Below, piece after piece: positions 1,838-60,405 of a stretch of DNA of 64,000 bases; position 1 is the first letter of the stretch, and every line of letters starts with the position of its first letter. A model generated the notes under the pieces. That model saw only the letters and a program-made list of their open reading frames with translations. It searched no databases and was not told the DNA's origin. Source of the stretch: Escherichia coli (GTDB taxonomy: Bacteria > Pseudomonadota > Gammaproteobacteria > Enterobacterales > Enterobacteriaceae); NCBI GenBank assembly GCA_029351405.1, contig GCA_029351405.1_4841.1, one strand, 5' to 3'. The position numbers were made by a program, and so were the translations under genes.

Positions 1838-1921
1838 GTGAGTGTGGCAGAGCGGTCGAATGCAGGAGACTGTAAATCTCCCCGTAACAGCGCGGTGGTT
1901 CGAATCCATCCACTCACACCA
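1838..1921 (+). tRNA. tRNA-Tyr (GTA), class II with long variable arm
   Basis: Acceptor GTGAGTG/CACTCAC, anticodon stem GGAGA/TCTCC with loop CTGTAAA, ~12 nt variable region, T-arm GGTGG-TTCGAAT-CCATC, 3' ACCA. Confidence 0.7.
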
Positions 1922-2141
1922 AACACAGTAAGCGTTGCAGCCAGCTGTGTATAAAATGGGGTGACTCCACATCGGAAACGATGCCCCAACTTCCAGAAAT
2001 GGTCGGGCGCAAAGCCTGTAAAGTTCCAGGAGATCGAACCAGAAGGCACTGGTCGCCAGTTAACCAATCGGCGCTGAGAAGCGCGGGGAGTTGGGCTACG
2101 GCAGATCAAATGCTCAATCGGGTGTGAAGCCCGTCCAAATT

Positions 2142-2230
2142 GGAAGGTTGCCCGAGAGGTTTAAGGGACTCGACTGCTAATCGAGTGGGGCTTTTAGCCC
2201 CCGAAGGTTCGAATCCTTCACCTTCCGCCA
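2142..2230 (+). tRNA. tRNA-Ser (GCT), class II with long variable arm
   Basis: Acceptor GGAAGGT/ACCTTCC, anticodon stem CTCGA/TCGAG with loop CTGCTAA, variable stem-loop GGGGCTTTTAGCCCC, T-arm GAAGG-TTCGAAT-CCTTC, 3' GCCA. Confidence 0.8.
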
Positions 2231-3314: not shown

Positions 3315-4508
3315 ATGAACAAAACCATCTTCGATACCCTTTCCCTCGACCGCAACCTGGTCCATTGGGAAGATTATCTCTACAAGCACACCCCGTGCGA
3401 ACTTGTCGTCAACCCCGAAACCAACCAGCAGGTCTGGTTCAAGCGTGAAGATTATTTTGCGCCGCTGTCCAATTACGCGGATGGCCAACAGGGTATCAAC
3501 GGCAGCAAACTCCGCCAGGCCATCTGGCTGATGGTTGAGCACCTCAAGGCCGGAGGCTCCCCTGATATCATTCATGGTACTGTTGTTGGTAGCCCGCAGT
3601 CCCCTATGGCGACAGCAGTCTCTCGGCACTTCGGCGGCAAGACAACCACTGTGCTCGGAGCGACCAAACCCACCACCTGTATGAACCACGACATGGTGGC
3701 AATGTCAGCCTGGTTTGGTAGTGAGTTCAACTTCGTCGGCTCGGGTTACAACAGCACCATCCAGCCGCGCTGTAAGAAACTCATCGAGCAGGTGAACCCA
3801 AAGGCGTACTATCTGGAATATGGTATCACCCTCGACCATACAGTGCATTCTCCTGAGCGCATCGCTGGCTTCCATATGCTGGGTGGCGAGCAGGTTGCCA
3901 ACATTCCTGATCACATTACTGACCTGATCATCCCAGCCGGATCGTGCAACTCTTGCACAAGCATCCTGACCGGGCTGGCAATGCATCCGAAGCCTAATCT
4001 GAAGCGTGTGTATCTGATCGGCATCGGTCCTAACCGCCTTGACTTTATCGAGAGCCGTCTGCGCATCATCGGCAAACATGCCAATCTGCCGCACATTGTC
4101 GACTTCACCCGTCGCTATCACGACAACCCAGACTATGTACACGGCAAGAAGGAGCTTCAGCATGCCTCTAAGAGCGTTTCGCTGGCTGGCCTCCTAAGTG
4201 GTATCAGGCAGAAGGAAGAGCCAGAGGTCGTGCTTCCTCGCTTTGAGGTACACCATTGGGATCTTCATACCACTAATTGGGTTCGTTACAATGACCTGAT
4301 GGAATATCAGTGGGGTGATATTGAGTTGCATCCTCGCTATGAAGGCAAGGTCATGACCTGGGTTCAGCAGAACAAGCCAGAGCTGCTCAATGAGAACACT
4401 CTGTTCTGGATTGTGGGTAGCAAGCCGTACATTGAGCCAATGAAGGCAGCATGCCCTGAGCTGGCTATCCCTGAAACAGTTCCTGTAAACGATTTCACCC
4501 CTTCCTGA
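3315..4508 (+). CDS. PLP-dependent enzyme, fold-type II (ACC deaminase / D-cysteine desulfhydrase / cysteine synthase-like)
   Basis: 397 aa; KREDY...NGSKLRQAIWLM resembles the KRDD...GGNKxRKLE lysine-Schiff-base region of the ACC-deaminase/DcyD family; GGAG RBS upstream. Confidence 0.6.
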   Translation: MNKTIFDTLSLDRNLVHWEDYLYKHTPCELVVNPETNQQVWFKREDYFAPLSNYADGQQGINGSKLRQAIWLMVEHLKAGGSPDIIHGTVVGSPQSPMATAVSRHFGGKTTTVLGATKPTTCMNHDMVAMSAWFGSEFNFVGSGYNSTIQPRCKKLIEQVNPKAYYLEYGITLDHTVHSPERIAGFHMLGGEQVANIPDHITDLIIPAGSCNSCTSILTGLAMHPKPNLKRVYLIGIGPNRLDFIESRLRIIGKHANLPHIVDFTRRYHDNPDYVHGKKELQHASKSVSLAGLLSGIRQKEEPEVVLPRFEVHHWDLHTTNWVRYNDLMEYQWGDIELHPRYEGKVMTWVQQNKPELLNENTLFWIVGSKPYIEPMKAACPELAIPETVPVNDFTPS

Positions 4509-4652
4509 CCCTCCTGAATACCCCATACATTCCGTGTGGGGTATCTATGAAAACCTTCCTCCAATATTTCCGAGAGGCGTCCTGTACAAACCAGACCTCG
4601 CCAAGCGGGAAGCCTAAATACCCCATATGGCTAACCCACTGAGGAACCCAAC

Positions 4653-6709: not shown

Positions 6710-9709
6710 ATGACCGTTTTCTATACGAACGTTGCCCGAAGGGGCAATGACCTGTTGATTCGAATTGCAGATGACATGGGTAATCGCCGTCTGTTGAAAA
6801 AGAAATTCGAACCCACTCTCTATTTACCCACGGTTGACTATTCAAATGTTGAAAAGGTCGGCCTTCTCAATGAACCCCTGGCAGCCAAGCAGTTCCCTTC
6901 CATGCGTGACGCTGATAACTATCTTGAAGAGTACAAGGAAGTCCAGGGTGCTGCCATTTACGGGCAGACCGATTATGCATACCAGTTCATCGCCCATAGC
7001 TTTCCTGGAAAGATTGAGCCGGATTACTCCAACATCCATATTGCTAACCTCGATATCGAAGTATTCTCCGCCGGGTGGAAAGACGGAAAGATGACCAAAG
7101 GTCCATTCCCTCACCCAACTATTGAGCAGCAGACGTTCAAAGGGAATGAGGCGCGCATTCGCCGCTTCCATAAACAAGTGCTGGCCAACCATGACTTTGT
7201 CCGTGAGCACTTCCCTGGTTCTTTCATCAGCAACAACGTCACTGATCAGTTCCCTATCATTGACAGCAACGGCAAGATCACCCAAGACATGAATGCGGCG
7301 TTCCCCATTACCCTGATCCAGCTTCAGGATATGGCGACCAATAAGTTCATGGTCTGGGGTATGCCCTGTGCCAAAGATCGTAACAAATTCGCATACGACA
7401 CCGAAGACAAAGAGATCGGCGGCCTTGAGGTTGTTTATCAGGAGTTCACCACCGAACAAGATCTGCTGCGCTCGTTCCTAGACTTCTGGTCGGAGCGTCA
7501 GTTCGACGGCTGGACAGGCTGGAACATTGAAACGTTCGATAGCCCGTATCTTGTTGAGCGTATGAACCAGGTTCTGGGTGAGGCTGAAACGTCGCGCCTC
7601 AGTCCTTGGGGTATCATTAAGAAGCGTATCATTCGCGATAAGAAGGGCGATATCACGACATATCAGTTCGTGGGCTGTCCTATGCTCGATTATATGCAGA
7701 TCTACAAGAAACACACGTACACCACCCGTGAACGCTACTCTCTTGACTGGATTGCGTATTGTGAGCTGGGTGAGAAGAAGATGGACTACAGTGAGAGCAA
7801 GTCGCTCTTTGATCTGTACTTCAACGACTACTGCAAACACACCCGATATGGTATCAAAGACGTTAAGCTGGTGTGGCGACTTGAACAGAAGCTGCGCCTG
7901 CTCCAGCTGATGTTCGTCCTGGCCTACCGCACCAAGTCCAACTATGAAGACGGTCTGGGCACTGTGGCTCCGTGGCTGGCCATGTGCTACTATCGCCTGT
8001 ACGAGAAGGGGATAGTGCCTAAGATCCAGCGTGTATACGATGGTCCGACCGACTTTGAGGGTGCATACGTCATGGATGTGACACCAGGAATCTACTTCTG
8101 GGTCTTCTCGGAAGATTTGAACTCCCTGTATCCTCACATCATTCAGCAGTACAACCTCGGTCCAGAGACTATCGTTGGCGACAAACACCAGCGCCGTGAG
8201 ATCATTGAGGCTATGTGTGAAGAGCTGGCTGCTCAGATGAATAACATGGCAACGCCGATGCACAAACGTCGGTTGATGAAAGCCCTTCACGACAAGCTGT
8301 TGCGTGCGGTTGACGAACGCCTGCAGGTTGTTGATGAGTTGGTTGCCCTGGGTGAGTTCCACTTTGAAACCCTGCGCCGCTACAACGTGTCGTTCACGCC
8401 GAACGTTCAATTCTTCAGCAACGAGAAGATGTCGTTCCTGTCTGAAATCATGCGTGGTATCTACAGCGACCGTAAAGTAGAGAAAGCCAAGGGTCTGAAA
8501 TACGAGCAGTGGGCTGGTTGGTGTAAAGAGATGTCGAAGGGTGACTTCCATCTTGAGTCTGCCATGAAGTCTCGCTACTATGACCCAGAGTGGTATGAAG
8601 AGCACAAGAACATTGATCTTGATGCCCTGACTGAAGTGATGAAGAAGTGGGAAGATCTGGGTGTTGCTCAAGATACCCTTCAGCAAGGTCTGAAGATCTT
8701 GATGAATGCAGGTTATGGCGCGATCTCAAACGTCTGGTTCAAAGAGTACTTCAACCTCAACATTGCCGAAGCCATCACCACATCCGGTCAGCTGATCAAC
8801 AAGTGGAACAAGCGTTACACTGATGACTATCTGAACAAGCTGTGTGGTACAACAGGCCAGGACTTCGTCATCGCAGGGGATACCGACTCCAACTACATCT
8901 GCATTGAGCGTCTTGTCAAGCAGTTGTGGCCTGATGTTACTGACCATCATGTTATGGTTGATAATATCGACCAATGGATCAAAGACAACTACCAGCCGAA
9001 GACCAATGAGTGGGCACAGCTTCTGTGTAACACCATGAACGGATTTGAACAGCGCATGGTGTGGGAGCGTGAGGTCATTGCGTCAGCCGCTGTCTGGCGA
9101 GCCAAGAAGATGTATGCCATGGCAGTGTACGACAGTGAGGGTATCAAGTACGAGAAGCCGAAGATCAAGTTCAAAGGCCTGGAAGCCCGCAAGTCCACCA
9201 CGCCGGAATGGTGTCGTGAGCGTCTTGTCAAGTGCTATGAGAAGATCCTACTAGGCACCGAAGAGGAAGTGCAGACGCTCATCTCCCAGTACAAAGAGGA
9301 GTACATGAAACTCTCTGTAGACGATATCGCCAAGGCTTCCGGCGTGTCCGACATAGAGAAGTGTGTGGCTGCTGACGGATCGTTCATCTCTGGTGCTCAT
9401 TTTGCTGCCAAGGCTTGTGTGGGCTACAACCGTCTGGTTGAGAAGAACGAAGATCTGGGTCTACCGATGATCGAGTCGGGTGATAAGGTACAGATGGTGT
9501 TGTTGAAGCCAGGCAACCCATTCGGCCAGAATTACTTTGCATATCCTGAGTTCTTCCCTGAGGAGCTTGGTCTGGGTAAATGGGTGGATTATCAGGCGGC
9601 CTTTGAGAAGTCCTTCATTGATCCGATTCAGTCTATCCTCGACGTGGTCGGCTGGTCACACAAGCGCCGTGTGAACCTTCTTGCCATGATGCAAAAGAAG
9701 AAAGGTTGA
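6710..9709 (+). CDS. 43: DNA polymerase, family B (T4 gp43-like)
   Basis: 999 aa; N-terminus KFPSMRDADNYL...ANLDIEV parallels T4 gp43 KFPSMKDARDW...ANCDIEV; motif B KILMNAGYG and motif C GDTDSNY; GGAG RBS. Confidence 0.95.
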   Translation: MTVFYTNVARRGNDLLIRIADDMGNRRLLKKKFEPTLYLPTVDYSNVEKVGLLNEPLAAKQFPSMRDADNYLEEYKEVQGAAIYGQTDYAYQFIAHSFPGKIEPDYSNIHIANLDIEVFSAGWKDGKMTKGPFPHPTIEQQTFKGNEARIRRFHKQVLANHDFVREHFPGSFISNNVTDQFPIIDSNGKITQDMNAAFPITLIQLQDMATNKFMVWGMPCAKDRNKFAYDTEDKEIGGLEVVYQEFTTEQDLLRSFLDFWSERQFDGWTGWNIETFDSPYLVERMNQVLGEAETSRLSPWGIIKKRIIRDKKGDITTYQFVGCPMLDYMQIYKKHTYTTRERYSLDWIAYCELGEKKMDYSESKSLFDLYFNDYCKHTRYGIKDVKLVWRLEQKLRLLQLMFVLAYRTKSNYEDGLGTVAPWLAMCYYRLYEKGIVPKIQRVYDGPTDFEGAYVMDVTPGIYFWVFSEDLNSLYPHIIQQYNLGPETIVGDKHQRREIIEAMCEELAAQMNNMATPMHKRRLMKALHDKLLRAVDERLQVVDELVALGEFHFETLRRYNVSFTPNVQFFSNEKMSFLSEIMRGIYSDRKVEKAKGLKYEQWAGWCKEMSKGDFHLESAMKSRYYDPEWYEEHKNIDLDALTEVMKKWEDLGVAQDTLQQGLKILMNAGYGAISNVWFKEYFNLNIAEAITTSGQLINKWNKRYTDDYLNKLCGTTGQDFVIAGDTDSNYICIERLVKQLWPDVTDHHVMVDNIDQWIKDNYQPKTNEWAQLLCNTMNGFEQRMVWEREVIASAAVWRAKKMYAMAVYDSEGIKYEKPKIKFKGLEARKSTTPEWCRERLVKCYEKILLGTEEEVQTLISQYKEEYMKLSVDDIAKASGVSDIEKCVAADGSFISGAHFAAKACVGYNRLVEKNEDLGLPMIESGDKVQMVLLKPGNPFGQNYFAYPEFFPEELGLGKWVDYQAAFEKSFIDPIQSILDVVGWSHKRRVNLLAMMQKKKG

Positions 9710-9762
9710 TTCAATAAACCAAAGGGGGATATAATTCCCCCTGTTAACCCTTTGACAAACAG

Positions 9763-10113
9763 GTGATTGAAATGAAACTCAATAAGATTCTTCTGGTGTG
9801 CGCTCTGGCTTTCTCTACCACTGCGTGCTCCACCCTTCTGGACGTTGCGTCTACTGTAGACCTTGACGCGCCGACGTTCACCAATGAGCAGGCCGTGTCC
9901 AAGATGGAAGACACTATTAAGGCACATGCAGCACTGGACAACACTACTCCGGGTCCGCTCCAAACTGTCTGCAACTATGACGATTCCATCCAGGAAGACG
10001 AAACTTACCACTGCATCACCTACGTGAAGCAGGCCTCCGTCGTTCTGTATGCAGATTGTACCGAAGAACAGTGTGTTGCTACAGGCTACGATAAAGTTGA
10101 GGAAGACAAATGA
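9763..10113 (+). CDS. putative secreted/lipoprotein (116 aa)
   Basis: Signal-peptide-like N-terminus KILLVCALAFSTTAC with a Cys after the hydrophobic core; alternative start at 9772. Confidence 0.5.
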   Translation: MIEMKLNKILLVCALAFSTTACSTLLDVASTVDLDAPTFTNEQAVSKMEDTIKAHAALDNTTPGPLQTVCNYDDSIQEDETYHCITYVKQASVVLYADCTEEQCVATGYDKVEEDK

Positions 10114-10889
10114 ACAACCTGGTTTGTATCTATGATATGAAATCAAAGGTCGGTGGTCTGTATCGCGTCCTCGTGGATGTTGACCTGACGTTGGTCGACA
10201 GCCTCTCCCCTTGGGTGCAGTGGTTCAACGAAGAGAACATCGCCGCCGCTGCTATCGCTACGGGGGACCATAAGTCATACCAGTTCCAGCCGATTACCAA
10301 AGAGTGTTATATGTCCCATGCTGGCGACCTGGCTATTCTGATGCGTGAACGTGCGCATCCGGCGTGGCTATACCATGAAGTCCAATTGGGGATGCACAAA
10401 CAACGTGTGCCAAGCGGTAACGATCCTATGGATTGGTGGCGTCGCCCTGACTTGTACGCCAAGATGAACCCGCTCCCCGGTGCTTACGAGTTCCTGGTAA
10501 ATCTGAAGGATATCTTGCTTGAAGATTTCGACAATGTTGAATTCATCGCGGTGTCGAAGTGCGAGCCGGAACACGAGCGCAGCAAGCGTCAGTTTGTCTA
10601 TGATAAGTTCCCTGGTATCTTCAACGGGTTTGTCAGCACCGACGAAAAGCATCTGCTGGCTGGCGATGTCCTGATTGATGACAATCCGAAGTATGTTGAG
10701 CCGTGTGGTCTGAACAACATCTTTGTCATCTTTGTTCCTCAGGGCAATTATGAAAAACTGGATCTTTCGAACTCGGAAGATATGCTTTATATTAAACCAG
10801 TAGAAGGCCAGAACCACTTCGACTTCCTGAATCACAATATTATTGAAGTGGTCAATCGCCTGATTAGTCATTATCAATACGTCCGATAG
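10110..10889 (+). CDS. HAD-superfamily hydrolase, 5'(3')-deoxyribonucleotidase-like
   Basis: 259 aa; N-terminal VLVDVDLTLVD matches the HAD DxDxT phosphatase motif; ATGA overlap with the upstream stop. Confidence 0.55.
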   Translation: MNNLVCIYDMKSKVGGLYRVLVDVDLTLVDSLSPWVQWFNEENIAAAAIATGDHKSYQFQPITKECYMSHAGDLAILMRERAHPAWLYHEVQLGMHKQRVPSGNDPMDWWRRPDLYAKMNPLPGAYEFLVNLKDILLEDFDNVEFIAVSKCEPEHERSKRQFVYDKFPGIFNGFVSTDEKHLLAGDVLIDDNPKYVEPCGLNNIFVIFVPQGNYEKLDLSNSEDMLYIKPVEGQNHFDFLNHNIIEVVNRLISHYQYVR

Positions 10890-10898
10890 GAGGACATC

Positions 10899-11204
10899 GT
10901 GCAAGATCAGAATAAGTTCGGGGAAATCCCCGACAAGCGTTCCGGTGATAGCGACATGGATGGCGTGATTAACCATGTGAACAACTTCATTCGCCAGCAG
11001 GAGACTCCGACTCCTATCGGCGCAGCCAAGGCTCTTCATGATGTACTGGTGAAGATCGGCCAGCGCTCTGAAGCGGATGAAATCTTCTATAACTTCGACG
11101 ACCAGTATAAAGTTAAGTTTGAAGAAAACGGTCGTCCGCATGTTGCTGTGTTCTGGGCACCTTGGCTGGGCGGCGTGAGCTGGCGTATTGAGGATGCTGT
11201 GTAA
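10899..11204 (+). CDS. hypothetical protein (101 aa)
   Basis: GTG start preceded by TAGGAGGA RBS. Confidence 0.45.
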   Translation: MQDQNKFGEIPDKRSGDSDMDGVINHVNNFIRQQETPTPIGAAKALHDVLVKIGQRSEADEIFYNFDDQYKVKFEENGRPHVAVFWAPWLGGVSWRIEDAV

Positions 11205-12121
11205 TGGCTAAAATAATTGTAGTGAAGGGAACAAGTGGCGTGGGCAAGGGTACGAGAGTGGTCCAGTTCATCGAATGGCTCCGTACGAAGCTGGAGCCTA
11301 CCGAACTGACCTACACCGTTGGTGACAAGACTCGCCCGTTTGGCCTGAAGTTCGGAGAGCTGAAGTTAATCTTCGTTGGACAGTACACCGTGTCTAACAA
11401 ATCCGGCCTGGCTTCCTGGACTTCAATGGATGCAATCCATGCTGCTACAGGCTCAGGCGATATTGCTCGTGATCTAATCAAGTGCTGGTTGGTTCAGGGA
11501 TACACTCTGGTGTGCGAGGGTGAACCCCTCATGCTGTCGGACAAATGGCGTCCTGAATGGATGTTCAAGAACTATCCGATTGAATCATTGGCGCTGCTGT
11601 ACTTTGCGTACCCCGACCGCTATCAGTACGATGCTCGTATCCGTGGTCGCTCTGGTAAAGAAGCAGGGAACTCCGGCTGGTCGCGCAACGAATCTTACTC
11701 CAAGGAGTTTGAGAAGTCGAAGGCCGAAATGCTGGCGCTGGGCTTCACTGTGGCTGTTGATGATTACAGCGGACAGGATATCCTGTATAAATCACCGAAT
11801 GCCAACACCCAGGAGTTCCTGACCAGCCAGCAGTCAGAGTTGGCGGTACTACCGTTCGACGCCCCGCTTTGGGTGGTGGGTAACGCGATTTGCCATCAGA
11901 TACGGTCCGAACTGCGTGAAGTTAACATGGACACCAAAGACTTTTACGCCTACTGTGAAACCAATCCGATGACCCGTGAGGTCGGCGGTGATGATCCTTT
12001 GGCGCACAGAGTGCCTGAGAAGCCGCAGAAGGCATCCAAAACTAAAACCAAGGCGAGCGCCCAGCCAGAAGTAACGAAGGCAGCGTCGCGCTCTCTCCTT
12101 GACCTGATGAAGAAGGGGTGA
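11204..12121 (+). CDS. P-loop kinase-like protein (candidate nucleotide or DNA-base kinase)
   Basis: 305 aa; N-terminal IVVKGTSGVGKGT glycine-rich P-loop; distinct from the dNMP kinase at 52608-53177. Confidence 0.5.
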   Translation: MAKIIVVKGTSGVGKGTRVVQFIEWLRTKLEPTELTYTVGDKTRPFGLKFGELKLIFVGQYTVSNKSGLASWTSMDAIHAATGSGDIARDLIKCWLVQGYTLVCEGEPLMLSDKWRPEWMFKNYPIESLALLYFAYPDRYQYDARIRGRSGKEAGNSGWSRNESYSKEFEKSKAEMLALGFTVAVDDYSGQDILYKSPNANTQEFLTSQQSELAVLPFDAPLWVVGNAICHQIRSELREVNMDTKDFYAYCETNPMTREVGGDDPLAHRVPEKPQKASKTKTKASAQPEVTKAASRSLLDLMKKG

Positions 12122-12321
12122 TCATGAAACGGTTGTCTAATTATCTGTTGTTCATCGGTCTGATTATGGCAGCTATTTCAATGTGCGTTGGCCTGGCGTA
12201 TCATTTCACTTCTCTGGATTTAACGACCTCAGAGAAGTTGAATGTGACTGTGATGTACTGTATTGGCGCGGTGATGTCTATCGGCGCTGCTGGTTACAAA
12301 ATATTCAAGGAACCAAAATGA
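12118..12321 (+). CDS. small membrane protein (67 aa)
   Basis: Two hydrophobic helices; ATGA overlaps at both ends. Confidence 0.4.
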   Translation: MIMKRLSNYLLFIGLIMAAISMCVGLAYHFTSLDLTTSEKLNVTVMYCIGAVMSIGAAGYKIFKEPK

Positions 12322-12677
12322 AAATTCAAATCCCTCGCGATGCTGTAGCTGTTGCGATTGACTACACCGGAAACGCCAAGCACATTACTGCCGTGCGCCT
12401 GATTCCTGAAAAGAACTGCGTCATCCCTCAGTTCCAGCTGAATGCCAATCCGTCGTCCAAAGACTTCGGCAAGTGGTTACAGGCTGCTCCGTTCCGTACC
12501 CAGACGAATGCTCAGATGTTCATCTCGGGTAAGACCCACACTGCAGCCCGTCTGTGGTTCGTGACCGCTGACCGTCGCTTTGTTGATATGTGGGAACGTC
12601 CGATGGGGTTCGTGAAGCCGGAAGATATTCAGCTGGCTCCTGAAGAGGAAGCGAAAGATGAAAATCAAGTCGGTTGA
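12318..12677 (+). CDS. hypothetical protein (119 aa)
   Basis: Start set at MKIQIP (ATG 12318) overlapping the upstream TGA; the track ORF starts earlier at 12183 inside the upstream gene. Confidence 0.45.
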   Translation: MKIQIPRDAVAVAIDYTGNAKHITAVRLIPEKNCVIPQFQLNANPSSKDFGKWLQAAPFRTQTNAQMFISGKTHTAARLWFVTADRRFVDMWERPMGFVKPEDIQLAPEEEAKDENQVG

Positions 12678-12843
12678 TTTTATCTTCATGATGCTGATGT
12701 TCGTTATCTTCACGGTATCGCTCGTCGGCGCCATGGTCACAGAAGGGGTTCCACAACGTCCCTTCCTGGTGATTTGTCCTGTATCGATCGCCACTTTCTT
12801 CTATCTGGCGTTCCGTGTTGAATTGGGGAACAAACTCGAATGA
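12658..12843 (+). CDS. small membrane protein (61 aa)
   Basis: Hydrophobic FIFMMLMFVIFTVSLVGAMV; translationally coupled to its neighbours. Confidence 0.4.
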   Translation: MKIKSVDFIFMMLMFVIFTVSLVGAMVTEGVPQRPFLVICPVSIATFFYLAFRVELGNKLE

Positions 12844-14075
12844 CACATCTATCTAAAATGCCGACGGGCTATACGCCCCCGGCTGAATGGAAGTACCCGA
12901 TTGACCTATCTGTTGACTACCGTAAACCTGAGAATCGCATGTACCTGCTCAAGGCTTGGGTGGAGGCGCTGTCCTACACAGAAGAGCACAACCAGCAGAT
13001 GCGTCTGATGGACTATGCGATTGAAGTCACTGAAGGCATCAGCCTCGAACAGAAAGTCGAGCGCAAGATCTGGATGGCATTCCTGTGGGGTTGTTGCTAT
13101 AACGCTGTCGGACCGTGGACGATCTACAGTGAGTTCCCTATGCCACCCCAGTCCAAAGAAGAGATGCAGCGCTTCTCTGATTGGTATAATCTGAACTTTG
13201 AACGCATGCGATTCGATACCGACTGTCGCTACCGCAAGTCCAAGATGATTCCGTGTGTTCAGTCCTATATTGACTGGCTGGCTGGCCGTACTCAATATGA
13301 CGCTTTCCGTGGGATGTTGGTGTGCATCGATAAGACAGAACAATTCACCCAGCTGTGGGACACGGCGATGTCCTGGAAATACTTCGGTCGCCTGAGCGCC
13401 TGGAACTTCCTGGAAGCCCTGAACATGGTCTTCGGGAACGAATACACCATTGACGTCCCTGGCTTCATGCTGCGTGATCGTGATGGAAGCGAGTCCAACC
13501 GTAATGGCGCGGCGTTCTTGTCCAACCGTGACGATTGGGTGACTAAACACGGGAAGAAAAAGATCAACGGTTGCCCTATCACGGATGAAGAGTGTGACAT
13601 CCTTGAGGCCGACCTTGAGCAGGCGTTCCAGGATTGTGTGGCTGAGTTCGGACACCTGACGTTCATCAACCGTCTGAACTTTGAAACCTCCGGTGCTTGT
13701 TGGCTGAAGAAATTCTTCCGACTGAAGAATACCCGTTATATCGGGTGGGACGCAGAGCGTACCTGGGATGAGATAGACTACATGGAACGCGTCTGGCCTG
13801 AATACTCCTGCGCAGCGCTCTGGGAAGCCCGTTCTCTCTGGCTACCAGATACCCTGTTGTGCGAAAAGGCTCCTGCAGGGCACGTTCCAGGCGTCCAGAA
13901 GTGGAAGATGCCTGTGTTCTTTGAGACTGGTGTTCCTCTGCATATCTGGCACCTGCAAAAGGGTACGCGCTGGGAACCATCCGAGGTCTGTACGAACCTG
14001 AAGATGCCTGTGCGCAAGGTTGAGGACAAGTCGAAGTCCAGCAGCGTCAACCTCATGGCACTCTTGAAACGCTGA
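12840..14075 (+). CDS. hypothetical protein (411 aa), candidate DNA-modification enzyme
   Basis: Long ORF overlapping the upstream stop; no catalytic motif recognised by eye; sits downstream of the P-loop kinase. Confidence 0.55.
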   Translation: MTHLSKMPTGYTPPAEWKYPIDLSVDYRKPENRMYLLKAWVEALSYTEEHNQQMRLMDYAIEVTEGISLEQKVERKIWMAFLWGCCYNAVGPWTIYSEFPMPPQSKEEMQRFSDWYNLNFERMRFDTDCRYRKSKMIPCVQSYIDWLAGRTQYDAFRGMLVCIDKTEQFTQLWDTAMSWKYFGRLSAWNFLEALNMVFGNEYTIDVPGFMLRDRDGSESNRNGAAFLSNRDDWVTKHGKKKINGCPITDEECDILEADLEQAFQDCVAEFGHLTFINRLNFETSGACWLKKFFRLKNTRYIGWDAERTWDEIDYMERVWPEYSCAALWEARSLWLPDTLLCEKAPAGHVPGVQKWKMPVFFETGVPLHIWHLQKGTRWEPSEVCTNLKMPVRKVEDKSKSSSVNLMALLKR

Positions 14076-14111
14076 TATAAATATCCTCGCCTATAAAGCG
14101 AGGATATTATC

Positions 14112-14279
14112 ATGTTACAAGATCTGCTGGTTTATGCGCTTCCTGGCGCGGTTGTCGGCTTCATCGCTGGCGCTCTGGTCTTCCGTAAACACGCGCAAGA
14201 CGGTGAGGTGATTGTTCAGAAGGGTAAAGATATCCTAGAACAAATCGAAGCCAAACTGGACGAGCTGAAGAAAAAGTAA
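14112..14279 (+). CDS. small membrane protein (55 aa, below the ORF-track cutoff)
   Basis: ATG at 14112 with GAGGAT RBS; hydrophobic LLVYALPGAVVGFIAGALVF; followed by a terminator. Confidence 0.35.
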   Translation: MLQDLLVYALPGAVVGFIAGALVFRKHAQDGEVIVQKGKDILEQIEAKLDELKKK

Positions 14280-14306
14280 TCTGACTGGGGTTGCTTCCTT
14301 CAATAA

Positions 14307-14346
14307 AGGGGAATGGGTTATTATTAGCCCGTTCCCCTTTCTTTTT
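14307..14346 (+). terminator. Rho-independent terminator
   Basis: Hairpin GGGGAA(T)GGG-(TTATTATTAG)-CCC(G)TTCCCC followed by TTTCTTTTT; TTCAATAAA motif immediately upstream. Confidence 0.6.
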
Positions 14347-46130: not shown

Positions 46131-46343
46131 TCACTTCCTCATCAGTGAGAGTAGGTTGACCGTAGCCGGGCGCGCATCAGGGGCGTAGAAGACGTCCTGA
46201 GAGTGCCTCTTACAGCACGGGCAATCCTTCGTGGCGATTACACAGGGAGCCTTGTCCACGGCAAATCCAGCGGCTTCGGCTTCCTTCACAGTGGTGAATG
46301 GCAGGTAAGCACTTGTGCCCTGCCCTCCGCATGAACATTCCAT
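46131..46343 (-). CDS. small Cys-rich protein (70 aa)
   Basis: CSCGG...CVIATKDCPCC cysteine cluster. Confidence 0.4.
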   Translation of the reverse strand: MECSCGGQGTSAYLPFTTVKEAEAAGFAVDKAPCVIATKDCPCCKRHSQDVFYAPDARPATVNLLSLMRK

Positions 46344-51530: not shown

Positions 51531-52057
51531 TTCACTTCCTCTTTGTTGTTAATCGTCGTTAGTAAGTCTACACCCATAACCTTCTGGGACAAAATGTTAA
51601 CCGCCTCTTGGATGCTCTTCAGGGACATTGTCTCAACAAGCGACGATGCGTCATTATGCCGGTCGGTTAGGTACATATTGCGCAGATTGTTGTAGTTCGT
51701 GCGGTTGATGCACGCAGTGTTCAGTGCTATATTCAGGATATACATTATCTGTTCAATGGTTACATCCTTTGGCATAGCGTGGATGTAATAGATCGAGCCT
51801 TCAAAATAGACGTCTACCAGTTCATCTGGTATCTTGATGCCACCACTGGCATACTCTTCGATCATTCTGAACAGAGACTCTGGTTGCTCGCTGGCGATCT
51901 TATGCGTAACAGTCGCCGAAAGACCGTCGCCCGGTTTAACAGGCCTGTTGTATTCAGTAAGGAATACATTATGGCCGCCGCCGATGATGTGCTCGGCGAA
52001 TTTGGAGGATGCCTGAGCAGCGTTCTCCGCATGGTATGAAACGACGACTGTAAACAT
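51515..52057 (-). CDS. hypothetical protein (180 aa)
   Basis: Occupies the slot between uvsX and the nucleotide-metabolism genes where T4 has beta-glucosyltransferase; no glycosyltransferase motif seen. Confidence 0.5.
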   Translation of the reverse strand: MFTVVVSYHAENAAQASSKFAEHIIGGGHNVFLTEYNRPVKPGDGLSATVTHKIASEQPESLFRMIEEYASGGIKIPDELVDVYFEGSIYYIHAMPKDVTIEQIMYILNIALNTACINRTNYNNLRNMYLTDRHNDASSLVETMSLKSIQEAVNILSQKVMGVDLLTTINNKEEVKWPVH

Positions 52058-52611
52058 TAGAACTCCAGGGTCAGAGGGGTTTCTGCGGACTTGTCGTAAT
52101 CCGCGCCACCAGAAGCACGCAGACGATTGCGATCGTTCTTGCGCTTGTGCGCCAGTATGTAAGTCTCAATGTCGATCTCCATATAAGAACACGCAGACGA
52201 CAGGAAGAACATGAGAGTCTCAACGCAAGGATCGTTCATGAATTGCCCAAGGCGGTACGTAACATTGCGATGCCTTGCAACACCCAAAGCAGGTGGGGTG
52301 AATTCGCGATTACTGAGGACTTCAAATTCTTCTTCGATCTCGCCTTTGGTGCGGTCCACAAGGATGAAGCACAACATGAAGTGTACCACGTCCACCAGTT
52401 CATAAACTGCGTTCGTATGGTCAAACCCGATGTCGTTGCCATAGACCTTCCAGTCACGGGTGGTTTCATCAAGGAACTCTGCCCACTCACGATAGATAGA
52501 GTTGATGACTGCGTTCTGACTCCATACATTCTTCCACTCTTCCCCAAAGTAGGCCACGTTAGTGGCCTTTTGGAGTTCGAGCAGGCTTTTGATATGCCCT
52601 GCTGTGATCAT
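52057..52611 (-). CDS. dCTP/dUTP pyrophosphatase-like protein (T4 gp56-like)
   Basis: 184 aa; AVYELVDVVHFMLCFIL parallels T4 gp56 IKFELVDIFHFVLNMLV. Confidence 0.55.
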   Translation of the reverse strand: MITAGHIKSLLELQKATNVAYFGEEWKNVWSQNAVINSIYREWAEFLDETTRDWKVYGNDIGFDHTNAVYELVDVVHFMLCFILVDRTKGEIEEEFEVLSNREFTPPALGVARHRNVTYRLGQFMNDPCVETLMFFLSSACSYMEIDIETYILAHKRKNDRNRLRASGGADYDKSAETPLTLEF

Positions 52612-53177
52612 TTACGTTCTCCGTAGAATTTAACGAACGGTTCCCAACCATCAAATGGATTGAGGAATTCGTAGTCCACTTTCATTTGGTCAATGAAAGC
52701 CTCTATATCGTCCTCTATGATACCAGCACGATCAGCCTTTGAAATACGGGTGATAGGGCATTTCGTACTCAGCGCCCATTCATATTCCTGAGGGGTACGC
52801 AGATCGCTCACGATATAATGGACGTGGGGGTTCTGCTCTACCAGAGGAAGCTGGAAGCGCTTGAAGAATGCCAGGAACAGATCGGGTTGTACGTAACGCA
52901 AGCCCGTATCGCTGCCTAGATGAAGCCAGATCTGCCGGGGAGTTAAGCCCTTGGGGTTATCAGGGTGCACGTAAGGAACGTCCTTCACGGCATCCTCTAC
53001 CTCCGCTGGTAGCCATGGATAGATGAAGTTGGCAACCCGGCGCAGTTCATCTGAGAACGAAAGGCGCTGGATATCCATATCACCCTGTAGATGGTGATAG
53101 CTGATGAGGGACTCCAAACAGAAGTCCTTACCGGAGCGCTTGCGCCCCGTAAAGAATTCAAGATTTGGGTACATCAT
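52608..53177 (-). CDS. 1: deoxynucleoside monophosphate kinase (T4 gp1-like)
   Basis: 189 aa; P-loop FTGRKRSGKDF parallels T4 gp1 LSGVKRSGKDT. Confidence 0.7.
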   Translation of the reverse strand: MMYPNLEFFTGRKRSGKDFCLESLISYHHLQGDMDIQRLSFSDELRRVANFIYPWLPAEVEDAVKDVPYVHPDNPKGLTPRQIWLHLGSDTGLRYVQPDLFLAFFKRFQLPLVEQNPHVHYIVSDLRTPQEYEWALSTKCPITRISKADRAGIIEDDIEAFIDQMKVDYEFLNPFDGWEPFVKFYGERK

Positions 53178-54220
53178 ACTACACCTTCCAGGAACTTAGG
53201 ATCAACGATCTTGCGGTCAACCGGGGAATGGGTGAGCGCGGCGTTCAATCCATGATCCTGAATCAGGTCCAGGTTAATGAGCTTGTTATTCAATTTGCAG
53301 TGCAGGCAGTATGCCATCTGCACAATCAGACCGCGATCCGCATCATACTCCTTCAGGAAGGCAACAACAGTTTCCCAAGGACTACCGAAGTCACAATGAA
53401 CAAGCACGCCAGTGAACAGATCGCGGATATGGTTCTGGTTGGTCACGTTCGTGAAGTGGATCATGGAGTTGATGAACCCAGCTTCTACTTTGGTGTCCTT
53501 CGTGATCTTGCCCAGCTGCTTCTGGCTGACTTCATTGTTGTAGTAATGAAGATTGTTGGAGAAGAGCTTGTACTGGCCGACGTCAACATCCAACACCCGA
53601 GCAATCACTTCCTGAAGAATAGAGAACTCAATGAAGTTGATTGAACTCATACCCCACAGAACATCCTGTGAGCGATTGATAACCGTCAGGTTCAGGCGAC
53701 CTTCAACGATGGCGAACAACAGAGCCAGGTTACACACCATGTCCTTGGTCTTTGCTTCGCCACTCTCACTGAACTTCGCCAGACCAGCATCTGAATCCAG
53801 AGCCGGATCATAGATGGTGAGGTACGCCTGGCGAGTGTTTGGATTCTTGCGCAGGCGGTTGATGACGCTATCCAGCTGGCCATGGGCGTACAGACGCGGA
53901 CCATAAGCGGCTCGCCATGTGTGGCCGTTGTCGGAAAAGTTGGCGGCGCGGGGCAACACGCGGGACAGGAAGCGAACGTCATCGCGCCCGGACAGAACCC
54001 AGAAGGTCTCGCCGATGGCGGCGATAGCCGATGAGTTACGACCTTCAACGGATAGCCAGCGGTCACGGATGTCGGCGACGGTTATGGTCACGCCATCAAG
54101 GAAGCGGGTGCTATCAGTATTGATTTCAGCATTACCAGGATCAGATTCGATCCCGAATTCACGGATAGCCAAGACAGCCTGTTTCAGCATGTCATTGTTG
54201 TTTATTGCTTTGATTTCCAT
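53174..54220 (-). CDS. thymidylate synthase-family pyrimidine hydroxymethylase (dCMP or dUMP hydroxymethylase)
   Basis: 348 aa; RQAYLTIYDP and KDMVCNLALLF...INRSQDVLWG align with the TS/gp42 phosphate-binding Arg and catalytic Cys...RSxD region; about 100 aa longer than T4 gp42. Confidence 0.7.
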   Translation of the reverse strand: MEIKAINNNDMLKQAVLAIREFGIESDPGNAEINTDSTRFLDGVTITVADIRDRWLSVEGRNSSAIAAIGETFWVLSGRDDVRFLSRVLPRAANFSDNGHTWRAAYGPRLYAHGQLDSVINRLRKNPNTRQAYLTIYDPALDSDAGLAKFSESGEAKTKDMVCNLALLFAIVEGRLNLTVINRSQDVLWGMSSINFIEFSILQEVIARVLDVDVGQYKLFSNNLHYYNNEVSQKQLGKITKDTKVEAGFINSMIHFTNVTNQNHIRDLFTGVLVHCDFGSPWETVVAFLKEYDADRGLIVQMAYCLHCKLNNKLINLDLIQDHGLNAALTHSPVDRKIVDPKFLEGVV

Positions 54221-54891
54221 CAGATACTCCCAAAATCACGACAGAGGAATGCCATCACAGCCTGGTCTACTGTTAGGCCGTGAGACTTCATCATACCCGC
54301 AGCCACCGTAGGGAACAAGTCTTTATGTCGTTGACGATGGTCATGAACTCTCTCCCACTTCTCGACCACCAGACTTTCATTGAAATCCACACCGCCGTTG
54401 CGTGATTTAACGCGGGTGATACACGTTTCAAGAGGAGTGTCCATAAAGAGCACAACCAATTCACGTGGTGGGCGTGTCAGGCGGGGGATCCAAGAACTCA
54501 ATAATGTGGATGGAATGATACCTTCGAAAATCACATCATATTTCAAGTATTCTGGTTGGTCAGCAATAGACAACGCGAACAACATCTGCTCAGTGTCCTT
54601 CAGGGAATCAACCCCCTTGGACTTCGACTTGTCATATTTACCGATACAGACCACGTTGAACGAAGGACAGACAGTCAGCATGACCTTGCCGTTATGGGTC
54701 ACGACATACGCCTGAGGATCCCTCTCCGCCAGCTGAGACGGCACAGTGGATTTACCGCTACCATTGGAGCCTTTGACGTAGTAGATTTGCCCTCGTGCTG
54801 GGTATATCCCCTTCACAACAGGTGGTTTAAAGAATGTGTGGACGGGGCGCTTCATCAGCCCCTTCAGGGAGTAGGACATAGACTGCTCCAA
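54220..54891 (-). CDS. P-loop NTPase, kinase-like (223 aa)
   Basis: Walker A GSNGSGKST; kinase-sized; directly upstream of the hydroxymethylase in the same operon. Confidence 0.5.
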   Translation of the reverse strand: MEQSMSYSLKGLMKRPVHTFFKPPVVKGIYPARGQIYYVKGSNGSGKSTVPSQLAERDPQAYVVTHNGKVMLTVCPSFNVVCIGKYDKSKSKGVDSLKDTEQMLFALSIADQPEYLKYDVIFEGIIPSTLLSSWIPRLTRPPRELVVLFMDTPLETCITRVKSRNGGVDFNESLVVEKWERVHDHRQRHKDLFPTVAAGMMKSHGLTVDQAVMAFLCRDFGSI

Positions 54892-60159: not shown

Positions 60160-60405
60160 CTACACTAATTTCTTAGACTTTAGCGCGTCTTTGATCAGGC
60201 GCGCATCGGAGCACTCAGCTGTCAGTCGTGACAACAATGGTGCTGTAATCATCTTTTTGACTTTGGTCTCGTCTATGTCGTTCTCTTCACAGACAGCTGC
60301 CAGAGTCTCAAGGATAGTATCCTTGGTTTGGGCGGCGCGTAGTAGGACGATTTCAGAAAATAATTCTGGTGTCATCACAAGCGCTGGCTGTTTTTCGTCA
60401 GACAT
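60160..60405 (-). CDS. hypothetical protein (81 aa)
   Basis: ORF co-oriented with its neighbours. Confidence 0.45.
   Translation of the reverse strand: MSDEKQPALVMTPELFSEIVLLRAAQTKDTILETLAAVCEENDIDETKVKKMITAPLLSRLTAECSDARLIKDALKSKKLV

What the first reader, a model, noticed from the sequence alone, without database searches (positions are those of the whole stretch)
11204..14075. Second kinase-like protein and a 411-aa unknown enzyme: candidate post-replicative base-modification pair
A 305-aa protein with a glycine-rich P-loop (GTSGVGKGT) is followed by small membrane ORFs and a large 411-aa protein with no recognisable motif. Phages with hypermodified hydroxymethyl-pyrimidines are known to pair a DNA-base kinase with a pyrophosphorylase-type transferase. 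I cannot confirm membership of that transferase family from sequence alone, but the arrangement and the presence of a separate dNMP kinase elsewhere suggest this pair is not ordinary nucleotide salvage.
Basis: inference. Interest (0 to 1): 0.6.

Follow-up and report, generated by a model that had tools for sequence, protein, structure and literature searches.

The report
Known phage thymidine-hypermodification kinase–transferase pair

Summary
ORFs of 305 aa (11204-12121) and 411 aa (12840-14075) exist, and the P-loop GTSGVGKGT sits at residues 9-17.

The window is an Agtrevirus-like Ackermannviridae phage. The 305-aa protein matches Pfam PF18747 (5-hmdU DNA kinase 2, E 3.5e-157) and is 85% identical to ViI gp243. 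The 411-aa protein matches PF18724 (amino acid:DNA transferase, formerly aGPT-Pplase clade 2, E 1e-59) and is 90% identical to ViI gp247, the characterised serine:DNA transferase. Its essential Glu/Cys pair is conserved (E282, C287).

The window also encodes most of the remaining known pathway: PLP decarboxylase, dUMP hydroxymethylase-like ThyA, dNMP kinase, dUTPase-like enzyme and the first 5-hmdU DNA kinase. A homologue of ViI gp160 was not found in the window. The predicted product is 5-(2-aminoethoxy)methyl-dU.

One extra finding: the kinase, the transferase, the gp160-like protein and a small Cys-rich protein carry the same C-terminal motif as the DNA polymerase (xNLLxMMxKK). In Vibrio relatives all five switch together to K(K/R)LW. 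This suggests a shared docking site, probably the sliding clamp. That reading is inferred, not shown.

The parts
11204..12121 (+). 5-hmdU DNA kinase, clade 2 (HMUD2; orthologue of ViI gp243 / Vi01_196)
   Evidence: Pfam PF18747, E 3.5e-157, 522.6 bits, full length. 85% identity to ViI gp243 over 304 aa. The orthologue phosphorylates 5-hmdU in DNA (PMC8989533).
11228..11254 (+). Walker A P-loop GTSGVGKGT (residues 9-17)
   Evidence: Position confirmed. G9, G12, G14, K15 and T17 are invariant in a 5-sequence alignment that includes Vibrio and Mycobacterium phage kinases.
12086..12118 (+). Kinase C-terminal tail SRSLLDLMKKG, after a Lys/Pro/Ala/Thr-rich linker
   Evidence: Same motif type as the C-terminus of the DNA polymerase and of the transferase. 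Conserved in five genera and replaced by KTKKLW in Vibrio relatives.
12118..12321 (+). Small membrane ORF (67 aa from GTG; probably 65 aa from ATG 12124); ViI gp244 equivalent
   Evidence: phrog_4514, E 2.9e-33. Hydrophobic segment at residues 9-27. Only 34% identical to ViI gp244.
12318..12677 (+).
   Evidence: phrog_4163, E 1.2e-64. 56% identical to ViI gp245. No hydrophobic segment. No Pfam hit.
12658..12843 (+). 61-aa ORF with two hydrophobic segments, an insertion relative to ViI and AV101
   Evidence: phrog_7943, E 1.5e-41. Two hydrophobic segments. The alignment shows an insertion of about 165 nt that takes over the transferase's original start context and re-creates its ATG in an ATGA overlap.
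12840..14075 (+). Amino acid:DNA transferase (AADT, ex aGPT-Pplase clade 2); orthologue of ViI gp247, the serine:DNA transferase
   Evidence: Pfam PF18724, E 9.8e-60, residues 49-292. 90% identity to ViI gp247 over 411 aa. Orthologue activity and mechanism in PMC8989533.
13683..13700 (+). Catalytic motif E282-T-S-G-A-C287
   Evidence: E282 and C287 are invariant in alignment A1. They align with Glu243 and Cys247 of the PaMx11 gp46 crystal structure. Mutating the Cys or the Glu abolishes activity in ViI gp247 and M6 gp51.
14040..14072 (+). Transferase C-terminal tail SSVNLMALLKR
   Evidence: Matches the strict tail pattern 2 residues from the C-terminus. Conserved in five genera and replaced by KTRKLW in Vibrio relatives.
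6710..9709 (+). Family B DNA polymerase (T4 gp43-like); its C-terminus RRVNLLAMMQKKKG (9665-9706) carries the tail motif
   Evidence: ORF, annotated as DNA polymerase in relatives. Tail.
10110..10889 (+). NT5C-like 5'(3')-deoxyribonucleotidase, always upstream of the kinase (context; role in the pathway inferred only)
   Evidence: Pfam PF06941, E 9.9e-9. 76% identical to Vi01_194. A HAD/NT5C-like gene holds the same position in Vibrio relatives.
14305..14340 (+). Terminator-like hairpin (16-bp stem plus T-run), the strongest one on the + strand between the polymerase gene and position 15200 (a weaker pattern match lies inside the NT5C-like gene)
   Evidence: Together with the promoter-like site at 9706-9735 it suggests one transcription unit (inference).
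3315..4508 (+). PLP-dependent decarboxylase (orthologue of ViI gp226); last step of the pathway
   Evidence: 91% identity to ViI gp226 over 394 aa, including the Lys aligned with gp226 K92 (window K65). Pfam PALP at 30.1 bits, below its cut-off of 35. Orthologue activity.
54220..54891 (-). 5-hmdU DNA kinase, clade 1 (HMUDK_HMUD1; orthologue of ViI gp67)
   Evidence: Pfam PF18748, E 1.7e-108. 88% identical to ViI gp67. Only 24% identical to the clade 2 kinase.
53174..54220 (-). Thymidylate-synthase-family enzyme, presumed dUMP hydroxymethyltransferase
   Evidence: Pfam PF00303, E 1.5e-15. phrog_3676. 74% identical to Vi01_060c. Role as described for ViI-like phages in PMC5889632.
52608..53177 (-). 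dNMP kinase (the 'separate dNMP kinase')
   Evidence: phrog_139, E 1.8e-47. 91.5% identical to Vi01_059c 'dnk'.
52057..52611 (-). dUTPase_2 / NTP pyrophosphohydrolase
   Evidence: Pfam PF08761, E 6.3e-9. phrog_173.
46131..46343 (-). 70-aa Cys-rich protein ending in TVNLLSLMRK (same tail motif)
   Evidence: phrog_4789, E 1e-44. Tail. The Vibrio homologue VPHK388_0079 ends in KTKKLW.
60160..60405 (-). gp33-like late-transcription coactivator, ends in KSKKLV
   Evidence: phrog_254, E 3.5e-20. Tail. Used as a reference for a known clamp-binding C-terminus (PMC2988020).

Best explanation
The two genes are the clade 2 5-hmdU DNA kinase and the amino acid:DNA transferase of the Ackermannviridae thymidine-hypermodification pathway.

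The pathway, as established for phage ViI, runs as follows. A ThyA-like enzyme makes 5-hydroxymethyl-dUMP. This is phosphorylated to the triphosphate and built into DNA by the phage polymerase. The kinase then transfers one phosphate from ATP onto the 5-hydroxymethyl group of 5-hmdU within the DNA polymer, giving 5-PmdU.

The transferase attacks C6 of the base with its cysteine, expels the phosphate to leave an exocyclic methylene, and lets the side-chain hydroxyl of free L-serine add to it, giving O-serinyl-thymidine. The PLP enzyme encoded at 3315-4508 decarboxylates this to 5-(2-aminoethoxy)methyl-dU (5-NeOmdU), which protects the DNA from host nucleases.

Shown here: family membership, orthology, conservation of the catalytic residues, and the presence of most other pathway genes in the window. 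Taken from the literature on the orthologues: the chemistry. Inferred: that this phage makes the same end product.
For: Pfam gives PF18747 HMUD2 at E 3.5e-157 and PF18724 ADDT at E 9.8e-60, both far above the curated cut-offs.

The proteins are 85% and 90% identical over their full length to ViI gp243 and gp247, in the same gene order downstream of the polymerase.

ViI gp243 produced the same 5-PmdU nucleotide as the purified M6 kinase in reactions on 5-hmdU DNA. Purified gp247 transfers serine to 5-PmdU DNA. Its Cys and Glu are essential. E282 and C287 in the window protein align with Glu243 and Cys247 of the PaMx11 gp46 crystal structure.

The PLP decarboxylase orthologue is 91% identical to its ViI counterpart. 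The clade 1 kinase, ThyA-like enzyme, dNMP kinase and dUTPase-like enzyme are also in the window.

Kinase, transferase and gp160-like genes were each found in several hundred phage records (350-417). The per-genus record counts for the enterobacterial and Vibrio Ackermannviridae are nearly identical across the three searches.

A review states that the modification genes are conserved across the family (PMC11721090). The same assignments were published for the relative SW16-7 (PMC10458263).
Against: There are no chemical data for this phage, and I found none for any Agtrevirus. The end product is extrapolated from ViI and CBA120.

Two kinases in the genome make the same intermediate in vitro, so which one feeds the transferase in vivo is unknown.

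Neither window protein has a detectable sequence match to any solved structure at E up to 1. The fold was not checked here.

PHROGs and RefSeq label the kinase 'guanylate kinase'. No guanylate-kinase Pfam model matched at E up to 0.1.
Confidence: 0.93

Rival explanations
1. The 305-aa protein is an ordinary nucleotide (guanylate or thymidylate) kinase acting on free nucleotides. The 411-aa protein is a DNA glycosylase or a structural or accessory protein. The two are neighbours by accident.
Against: The family-specific models score 522 and 203 bits. No nucleotide-kinase or glycosylase model matched at E up to 0.1. The orthologues at 85-90% identity have demonstrated DNA-kinase and serine-transfer activities. 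The pair is conserved next to each other in lineages as distant as Vibrio phages. An analogous hydroxylase, transferase and kinase trio exists in mycobacteriophages.
Confidence: 0.02
2. The families are right but the chemistry differs. The transferase of this Agtrevirus-like phage accepts a nucleophile other than serine, or downstream steps differ, so the final base is not 5-NeOmdU.
For: Members of this family use different donors: glycine (M6, PaMx11), serine (ViI) and putrescine (PhiW-14). 42 of 411 residues differ from ViI gp247, with a divergent patch around residues 160-175. No Agtrevirus DNA chemistry was found in the literature I searched.
Against: The catalytic motif NFETSGACWLKKF and the segment aligned with the glycine-binding Trp146/Lys150 of PaMx11 gp46 (GRLSAWNFLEALN) are identical to those of ViI gp247. 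The PLP decarboxylase that must accept the product is 91% identical to its ViI counterpart. A review holds that the pathway is conserved family-wide.
Confidence: 0.07
3. The two genes are not a dedicated pair. The clade 1 kinase (54220-54891) supplies most of the 5-PmdU, and the adjacent clade 2 kinase is redundant or serves another branch, for example the gp160-like protein of unknown role.
For: ViI gp67 and gp243 both phosphorylate 5-hmdU DNA in vitro. Lee et al. 2018 noted the apparent redundancy of the paralogue pairs. Some relatives carry a strongly divergent kinase body (48% identity) fused to a homing endonuclease, while the transferase stays above 90% identical.
Against: Kinase 2 and the transferase are adjacent, or separated only by tiny ORFs, in every lineage examined. 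They directly abut in Vibrio phages and Serratia phiMAM1. Both share the C-terminal tail, which the clade 1 kinase lacks.
Confidence: 0.25

Closest known systems
Salmonella phage ViI (Vi01) gp243 (YP_004327565) and gp247 (YP_004327568), with gp226, gp67 and gp160: the 5-NeOmdU pathway (Lee et al. 2018 PMC5889632; Lee et al. 2021 PMC8989533)
   Same: Orthologues: 85%, 90%, 91% and 88% identity for gp243, gp247, gp226 and gp67. Same gene order (polymerase, DUF7292, NT5C-like, DUF7254, kinase, small ORFs, transferase). Same catalytic motifs and the same C-terminal tails.
   Different: Different genus (Agtrevirus-like rather than Kuttervirus). An extra 61-aa membrane ORF lies in front of the transferase. 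The small ORFs between the genes are only 34% and 56% identical. A gp160 homologue was not found in this window.
Pseudomonas phage PaMx11 gp46 (PUGT, 5-PmdU glycinyltransferase; crystal structures, Wen et al. 2024 PMC11472151) and M6 gp51
   Same: Same Pfam family. The Glu/Cys catalytic pair aligns (E243/C247 with E282/C287).
   Different: About 21-23% identity. These proteins are about 290 aa against 411 aa here. The glycine-binding Trp146/Lys150 are not conserved in the window protein (Leu/Asn at the aligned positions). They have no C-terminal linker and tail. The donor is glycine through its alpha-amine rather than serine through its hydroxyl.
Delftia phage PhiW-14 gp37/gp109 and Bacillus phage SP10 gp186: the classical putrescinyl- and glutamyl-thymine systems from which the kinase and 'aGPT-Pplase' families were predicted
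   Same: Same logic: 5-hmdU in DNA, phosphorylation of the base, then displacement by an amine or hydroxyl donor.
   Different: Different donors and products. Not compared at the sequence level here.
Phage T4 alpha-glucosyltransferase bound to the gp45 sliding clamp, and the shared clamp-binding C-termini of T4 gp43, gp55 and gp33
   Same: A phage DNA-modification enzyme that binds the replication clamp (PMC13216743). Several proteins carry the polymerase's C-terminal epitope behind a variable linker (PMC2988020). That is the architecture seen here.
   Different: The T4 epitopes are hydrophobic and acidic, whereas these tails are hydrophobic and basic. Binding to the clamp is not shown for any Ackermannviridae protein. 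The enzyme families are unrelated.

Membership tests
5-hmdU DNA kinase clade 2 (Pfam PF18747 HMUD2; ViI gp243 type) | Full-length match to the family profile above the curated threshold | tested here: met
   522.6 bits against a cut-off of 25, residues 1-304 on profile positions 1-298 of 298.
5-hmdU DNA kinase clade 2 (Pfam PF18747 HMUD2; ViI gp243 type) | P-loop NTPase Walker A motif | tested here: met
   GTSGVGKGT at residues 9-17. G9, G12, G14, K15 and T17 are invariant across five homologues.
5-hmdU DNA kinase clade 2 (Pfam PF18747 HMUD2; ViI gp243 type) | Orthology and synteny with the characterised enzyme | tested here: met
   85% identity to ViI gp243, with the same neighbours.
5-hmdU DNA kinase clade 2 (Pfam PF18747 HMUD2; ViI gp243 type) | Genome also encodes a source of 5-hmdU (dUMP hydroxymethylase) and a downstream transferase | tested here: met
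   ThyA-like gene at 53174-54220 and transferase at 12840-14075.
5-hmdU DNA kinase clade 2 (Pfam PF18747 HMUD2; ViI gp243 type) | ATP-dependent phosphorylation of 5-hmdU within DNA | not testable with these tools
   Shown only for the orthologue ViI gp243 (PMC8989533).
Amino acid:DNA transferase (Pfam PF18724 ADDT, ex aGPT-Pplase clade 2) | Match to the family profile above the curated threshold | tested here: met
   202.6 bits against a cut-off of 26.2, residues 49-292.
Amino acid:DNA transferase (Pfam PF18724 ADDT, ex aGPT-Pplase clade 2) | Essential cysteine with a neighbouring glutamate | tested here: met
   E282 and C287 are invariant in A1 and aligned with PaMx11 gp46 Glu243 and Cys247. 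They are essential in ViI gp247 and M6 gp51.
Amino acid:DNA transferase (Pfam PF18724 ADDT, ex aGPT-Pplase clade 2) | All-helical two-bundle fold of PaMx11 gp46 | not tested
   No structure prediction was run. phmmer of the single sequence against PDB sequences found nothing at E up to 1.
Amino acid:DNA transferase (Pfam PF18724 ADDT, ex aGPT-Pplase clade 2) | Serine as donor, linked through its side-chain oxygen | not testable with these tools
   Inferred from 90% identity to ViI gp247 and identical active-site segments.
aGPT-Pplase clade 3 (PF18746) and clade 1 / HMUDK_hel (PF18723) | Match above the curated threshold | tested here: not met
   PF18746 scores 14.3 bits, below its cut-off of 25. 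PF18723 gives no hit. ViI gp160 (a PF18723-type protein) has no tblastn match anywhere in the window.
T4-type sliding-clamp-binding C-terminal epitope | Short conserved motif at the extreme C-terminus behind a variable linker, shared with the cognate DNA polymerase | tested here: met
   Polymerase, kinase 2 and transferase in five genera. gp160-like protein in four of those genera (Taipeivirus not examined). Small Cys-rich protein in the window and in ViI. Eight of 9 strict-pattern hits in about 153,000 six-frame residues lie within 6 residues of a C-terminus. All five proteins switch together to K(K/R)LW in Vibrio phage K388.
T4-type sliding-clamp-binding C-terminal epitope | Same epitope on gp33 and gp55 | tested here: inconclusive
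   Vibrio gp33-like ends in KTRKLF, close to the KTRKLW of the transferase. Enterobacterial gp33 ends in KSKKLI or KSKKLV, and gp55 does not show the NLLxMM motif.
T4-type sliding-clamp-binding C-terminal epitope | Hydrophobic and acidic composition | tested here: not met
   The tails are hydrophobic and basic.
T4-type sliding-clamp-binding C-terminal epitope | Physical binding to the clamp | not testable with these tools
   The clamp gene is outside the window. No complex prediction tool was available.

The most novel reading that the evidence does not exclude
The DNA-acting hypermodification enzymes of Ackermannviridae (clade 2 kinase, serine:DNA transferase and gp160-like protein, but not the clade 1 kinase or the PLP decarboxylase) are tethered to the phage sliding clamp. 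The tether would be a C-terminal peptide they share with the DNA polymerase, so that 'post-replicative' thymidine hypermodification would be physically coupled to the replisome. The paired kinases would then parallel T4's clamp-bound alpha-glucosyltransferase and free beta-glucosyltransferase. I found no mention of this in the papers I searched.
Probability: 0.5. Interest if true: 0.6.

Novelty: already known. Interest (0 to 1): 0.27.

Why it matters
The finding itself adds nothing beyond one more Agtrevirus-like genome carrying the ViI-type 5-NeOmdU pathway. It is useful for annotation: most relatives still label these genes 'guanylate kinase' or 'hypothetical protein'. It is also useful for predicting that this phage's DNA will resist many restriction enzymes.

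The shared C-terminal tail would matter if it is a clamp-docking peptide. It would give a concrete, testable mechanism for how base hypermodification is coupled to replication. It could also explain why the family keeps two kinases and two transferase-like proteins.

Tried and rejected
- NCBIfam gave no hit for the kinase, the transferase or the nucleotidase.
- phmmer of either protein against PDB sequences found nothing at E up to 1. The link to the PaMx11 gp46 structure therefore rests on a multiple alignment.
- I looked for a ViI gp160 homologue in the window. There is none at E up to 1e-3. In ViI it lies at 87 kb, outside the region syntenic with the window.
- I suspected the AV101 PLP gene was split. 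The alignment showed instead that my coordinate offset was wrong and that AV101 carries an extra ORF downstream. I dropped this.
- I guessed that the fourth Vibrio protein ending in KRLW was the PLP decarboxylase or the 371-aa window protein. BLASTP showed no similarity to either. Pfam identified it as PF18723, the gp160 type.
- I tested whether the clade 1 kinase, PLP enzyme, ThyA, dNMP kinase, dUTPase, RNase H, ligase, helicases, UvsX, SSB or the clamp loaders carry the tail. They do not.
- I did not run the search for homologous proteins, structure prediction or fold search. Orthology at 85-90% to characterised enzymes already settles the question, and the cost was not justified.

Full report
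**Observation.** The two ORFs exist exactly as described: 11204-12121 (+, 305 aa) and 12840-14075 (+, 411 aa). GTSGVGKGT occupies residues 9-17 of the first. Three ORFs, not two, lie between them:
- a 67-aa ORF (12118-12321, probably starting at ATG 12124) with a strong hydrophobic segment;
- a 61-aa ORF with two hydrophobic segments (12658-12843).

All genes from 9763 to 14279 are on the + strand, mostly with overlapping stop and start codons. A promoter-like site follows the polymerase stop (9706-9735). The strongest terminator-like hairpin on the + strand lies at 14305-14340; a weaker pattern match lies inside the NT5C-like gene. A single transcription unit is therefore likely, but that is an inference.

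**Source.** The window is an Ackermannviridae genome of the Aglimvirinae/Agtrevirus type. The first 25 kb are 96.8% identical to Escherichia phage AV101 over 94% of their length, and about 91-92% identical to Shigella phage MK-13 and Salmonella phage SKML-39; the finding region itself is 91.9% identical to Shigella phage Ag3. GC content is about 50%. No record in the collection is identical.

**Family assignment.** The 305-aa protein matches Pfam PF18747, '5-hmdU DNA kinase 2', end to end (E 3.5e-157, 522.6 bits against a cut-off of 25). The 411-aa protein matches PF18724, 'amino acid:DNA transferase', over residues 49-292 (E 9.8e-60, 202.6 bits against 26.2). The aGPT-Pplase clade 3 model reaches only 14.3 bits, below its threshold. 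PF18724 is the model that relatives' annotations still call 'alpha-glutamyl/putrescinyl thymine pyrophosphorylase clade 2'. PHROGs labels the kinase family 'guanylate kinase' and leaves the transferase family unnamed. No nucleotide-kinase Pfam model matched at E up to 0.1.

**Orthology to characterised enzymes.** In Salmonella phage ViI the same gene order is found downstream of the polymerase. Vi01_196 (gp243 in the nomenclature of Lee et al.) and Vi01_199 (gp247) are separated by two small ORFs. The window proteins are 85% (257 of 304) and 90% (369 of 411) identical to them.

Lee et al. reported the following.
- In reactions on 5-hmdU DNA, ViI gp243, like gp67 and the purified M6 gp54, yields the singly phosphorylated base, 5-PmdU (PMC8989533).
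- Purified gp247 transfers L-serine onto 5-PmdU DNA through the serine hydroxyl, giving O-serinyl-thymidine.
- A conserved cysteine and a nearby glutamate are essential. Trapping experiments support a covalent Cys-C6 adduct with an exocyclic methylene intermediate.
- The PLP enzyme gp226 decarboxylates the product to 5-NeOmdU.

Earlier, five ViI lysates (gp67, gp160, gp226, gp243, gp247) reconstituted 5-NeOmdU on 5-hmdU DNA (PMC5889632).

**Active site.** I aligned the window protein with ViI gp247, a Vibrio phage homologue, a mycobacteriophage homologue, PaMx11 gp46 and M6 gp51. E282 and C287 are invariant. They align with Glu243 and Cys247 of the PaMx11 gp46 crystal structure, whose numbering I verified. 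The residues that hold glycine in gp46 (Trp146, Lys150) are not conserved here. The corresponding segment is identical to that of ViI gp247, which fits a serine rather than a glycine donor. Walker A residues of the kinase are invariant across homologues.

**Rest of the pathway.** The window also encodes:
- the gp226 orthologue (3315-4508, 91% identity, Lys65 aligned with the proposed PLP lysine K92);
- the clade 1 kinase (54220-54891, minus strand; PF18748, E 1.7e-108; 88% to gp67);
- a ThyA-family enzyme (53174-54220, minus strand; 74% to Vi01_060c), presumed to be the dUMP hydroxymethyltransferase;
- a dNMP kinase (52608-53177, minus strand; 91.5%);
- a dUTPase_2-type pyrophosphohydrolase (52057-52611, minus strand).

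No gp160 homologue was found in the window. An NT5C-like nucleotidase (10110-10889) sits upstream of the kinase here, in ViI and, as a HAD/NT5C-like gene, in Vibrio relatives. Its role in the pathway is only a guess.

**Co-occurrence.** tblastn finds the kinase in 350 phage records, the transferase in 379 and the gp160-like protein in 417. The per-genus counts are nearly identical across the three searches: Salmonella 162-164, Vibrio 62-65, Klebsiella 45, Escherichia 29-31, Dickeya 19-21, Serratia 10 and Shigella 6.

In Vibrio phages and Serratia phiMAM1 the kinase and transferase directly abut. Mycobacteriophages carry an analogous trio of thymidine hydroxylase, transferase-like protein and P-loop kinase. 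A review states that the modification genes are conserved across the family (PMC11721090). The same assignments have been published for the relative SW16-7 (PMC10458263).

**Verdict on the finding.** The system is already known, down to mechanism, in an orthologue at 85-90% identity. The main residual uncertainty is chemical: nobody, as far as I could find, has measured the modified base in an Agtrevirus.

**An extra observation: a shared C-terminal tail.** The kinase ends in ...KAASRSLLDLMKKG, the transferase in ...SSSVNLMALLKR, and the DNA polymerase of the same window in ...KRRVNLLAMMQKKKG.

A strict pattern, [SVN][NS][LVI][LM][ASDG][LM][LMF], occurs three times in the 50,417 residues of all six-frame ORFs of 60 aa or more in the window. 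All three hits lie 2-5 residues from a C-terminus: polymerase, transferase and a 70-aa Cys-rich protein at 46131-46343. In 102,689 residues of ViI it occurs six times, five of them within 6 residues of a C-terminus.

The motif follows a Lys/Pro/Ala/Thr-rich linker that varies between genera. It is present on polymerase, kinase 2 and transferase in Agtrevirus, Kuttervirus, Taipeivirus, Miltonvirus and Nezavisimistyvirus. It is also present on the gp160-like protein of ViI, Ag3, Serratia 2050H1 and Erwinia phiEa2809.

In Vibrio phage K388 the motif [KR][KR]LW occurs seven times in all six-frame ORFs across 150 kb. Five of these are at the extreme C-terminus, and they are the orthologues of the same five proteins: polymerase, kinase 2, transferase, the PF18723 gp160-like protein, and the small Cys-rich protein of phrog_4789. 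A second Vibrio phage shows the same for the four of these proteins examined there.

Five orthologous proteins that swap tails together between lineages point to one common binding partner. The clade 1 kinase, PLP decarboxylase, ThyA, dNMP kinase, dUTPase, RNase H, ligase, helicases, UvsX, SSB and the clamp loaders lack the tail. The transferases of M6 and PaMx11 end without any linker or tail.

[quoted passage not shown] It is shared, behind a variable unstructured linker, with gp55 and gp33 and is interchangeable among them (PMC2988020). T4 alpha-glucosyltransferase, another DNA-modifying enzyme, binds the gp45 clamp, whereas beta-glucosyltransferase does not (PMC13216743).

The Vibrio gp33-like protein ends in KTRKLF, almost the transferase's KTRKLW. 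This supports the clamp reading. The enterobacterial gp33 ends in KSKKLI or KSKKLV, and gp55 shows no clear NLLxMM motif. The tails here are basic rather than acidic. The assignment is therefore an inference, which I put at about 0.5 for the clamp specifically and higher for 'some shared replisome partner'.

I found no mention of a clamp or replisome link in Lee et al. 2021 or in full-text searches. That is a statement about the library searched, not about all literature.

**Variation at the locus.**
- The 61-aa membrane ORF is an insertion of about 165 nt. It is shared with Ag3 and SKML-39 and absent from ViI and AV101. It takes over the transferase's start context and regenerates the ATG in an ATGA overlap.
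- AV101 and RPN242 carry a GIY-YIG (SegD-like) homing endonuclease immediately upstream of the kinase, which the window lacks.
- In fGh-Ecl02 that endonuclease is fused in frame to a kinase whose body is only about 48% identical to the window's. Its P-loop and C-terminal tail are retained, and the transferase downstream stays highly similar: the DNA from the 3' end of the kinase gene through the transferase is 97.4% identical to the window.
- The small ORFs between the enzymes evolve far faster (34% and 56% identity to ViI) than the enzymes themselves.

Noticed in passing
window 9665-9706, 12086-12118, 14040-14072, 46131-46343 (-); ViI L009:27432-28655; Vibrio K388 L007, L016, L017: A C-terminal motif (xNLLxMMxKK) is shared by the DNA polymerase, kinase 2, the transferase, the gp160-like protein and a 70-aa Cys-rich protein. 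All five switch together to K(K/R)LW in Vibrio relatives. The pattern suggests a common docking partner, possibly the sliding clamp.
   Followed up: yes
window 12658-12843: The 61-aa ORF with two hydrophobic segments is an insertion of about 165 nt relative to ViI and AV101 and is present in Ag3 and SKML-39. It takes over the transferase's start context and re-creates the ATG in an ATGA overlap.
   Followed up: partly
window 11204 (junction upstream of the kinase); L002:10586-11272; L010:1739-3337: Relatives carry a GIY-YIG SegD-like homing endonuclease just upstream of the kinase (AV101, RPN242). In fGh-Ecl02 it is fused in frame to a divergent kinase body (about 48% identity) that keeps the P-loop and the tail. 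The window lacks the endonuclease.
   Followed up: partly
window 12118-12677: The small ORFs between the kinase and the transferase are only 34% and 56% identical to their ViI counterparts, against 85-91% for the enzymes. They are absent from Vibrio and Serratia relatives, where the two enzymes abut.
   Followed up: partly
window 4607-4624; L002 about 3500-4030: AV101 has an extra ORF of about 400 bp downstream of the PLP gene that the window lacks. The sequence GGGAAGCCTAAATACCCC...CCCACTG lies at the downstream end of AV101's extra segment and occurs once in the window, at the deletion point.
   Followed up: partly
window 10110-10889: An NT5C-like 5'(3')-deoxyribonucleotidase is conserved just upstream of the kinase in the enterobacterial Ackermannviridae examined, and a HAD/NT5C-like gene occupies that position in Vibrio relatives. 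It may belong to the nucleotide-pool side of the pathway.
   Followed up: no
window 54220-54891 (-): The clade 1 kinase has its own conserved C-terminus (AVMAFLCRDFGSI here; similar in ViI and Vibrio). It does not switch between lineages, so it is not the shared tail.
   Followed up: partly
window 1257-2230: Four tRNA genes (Met, Asn, Tyr, Ser) lie in a row, as annotated in AV101.
   Followed up: no
L008:785-3465 (Mycobacterium phage Prince): A three-gene module of thymidine hydroxylase, transferase-like 'DNA glycosylase' (26% identity to the window protein) and P-loop kinase. It is an analogous hypermodification cassette that starts from thymine oxidation in DNA.
   Followed up: no
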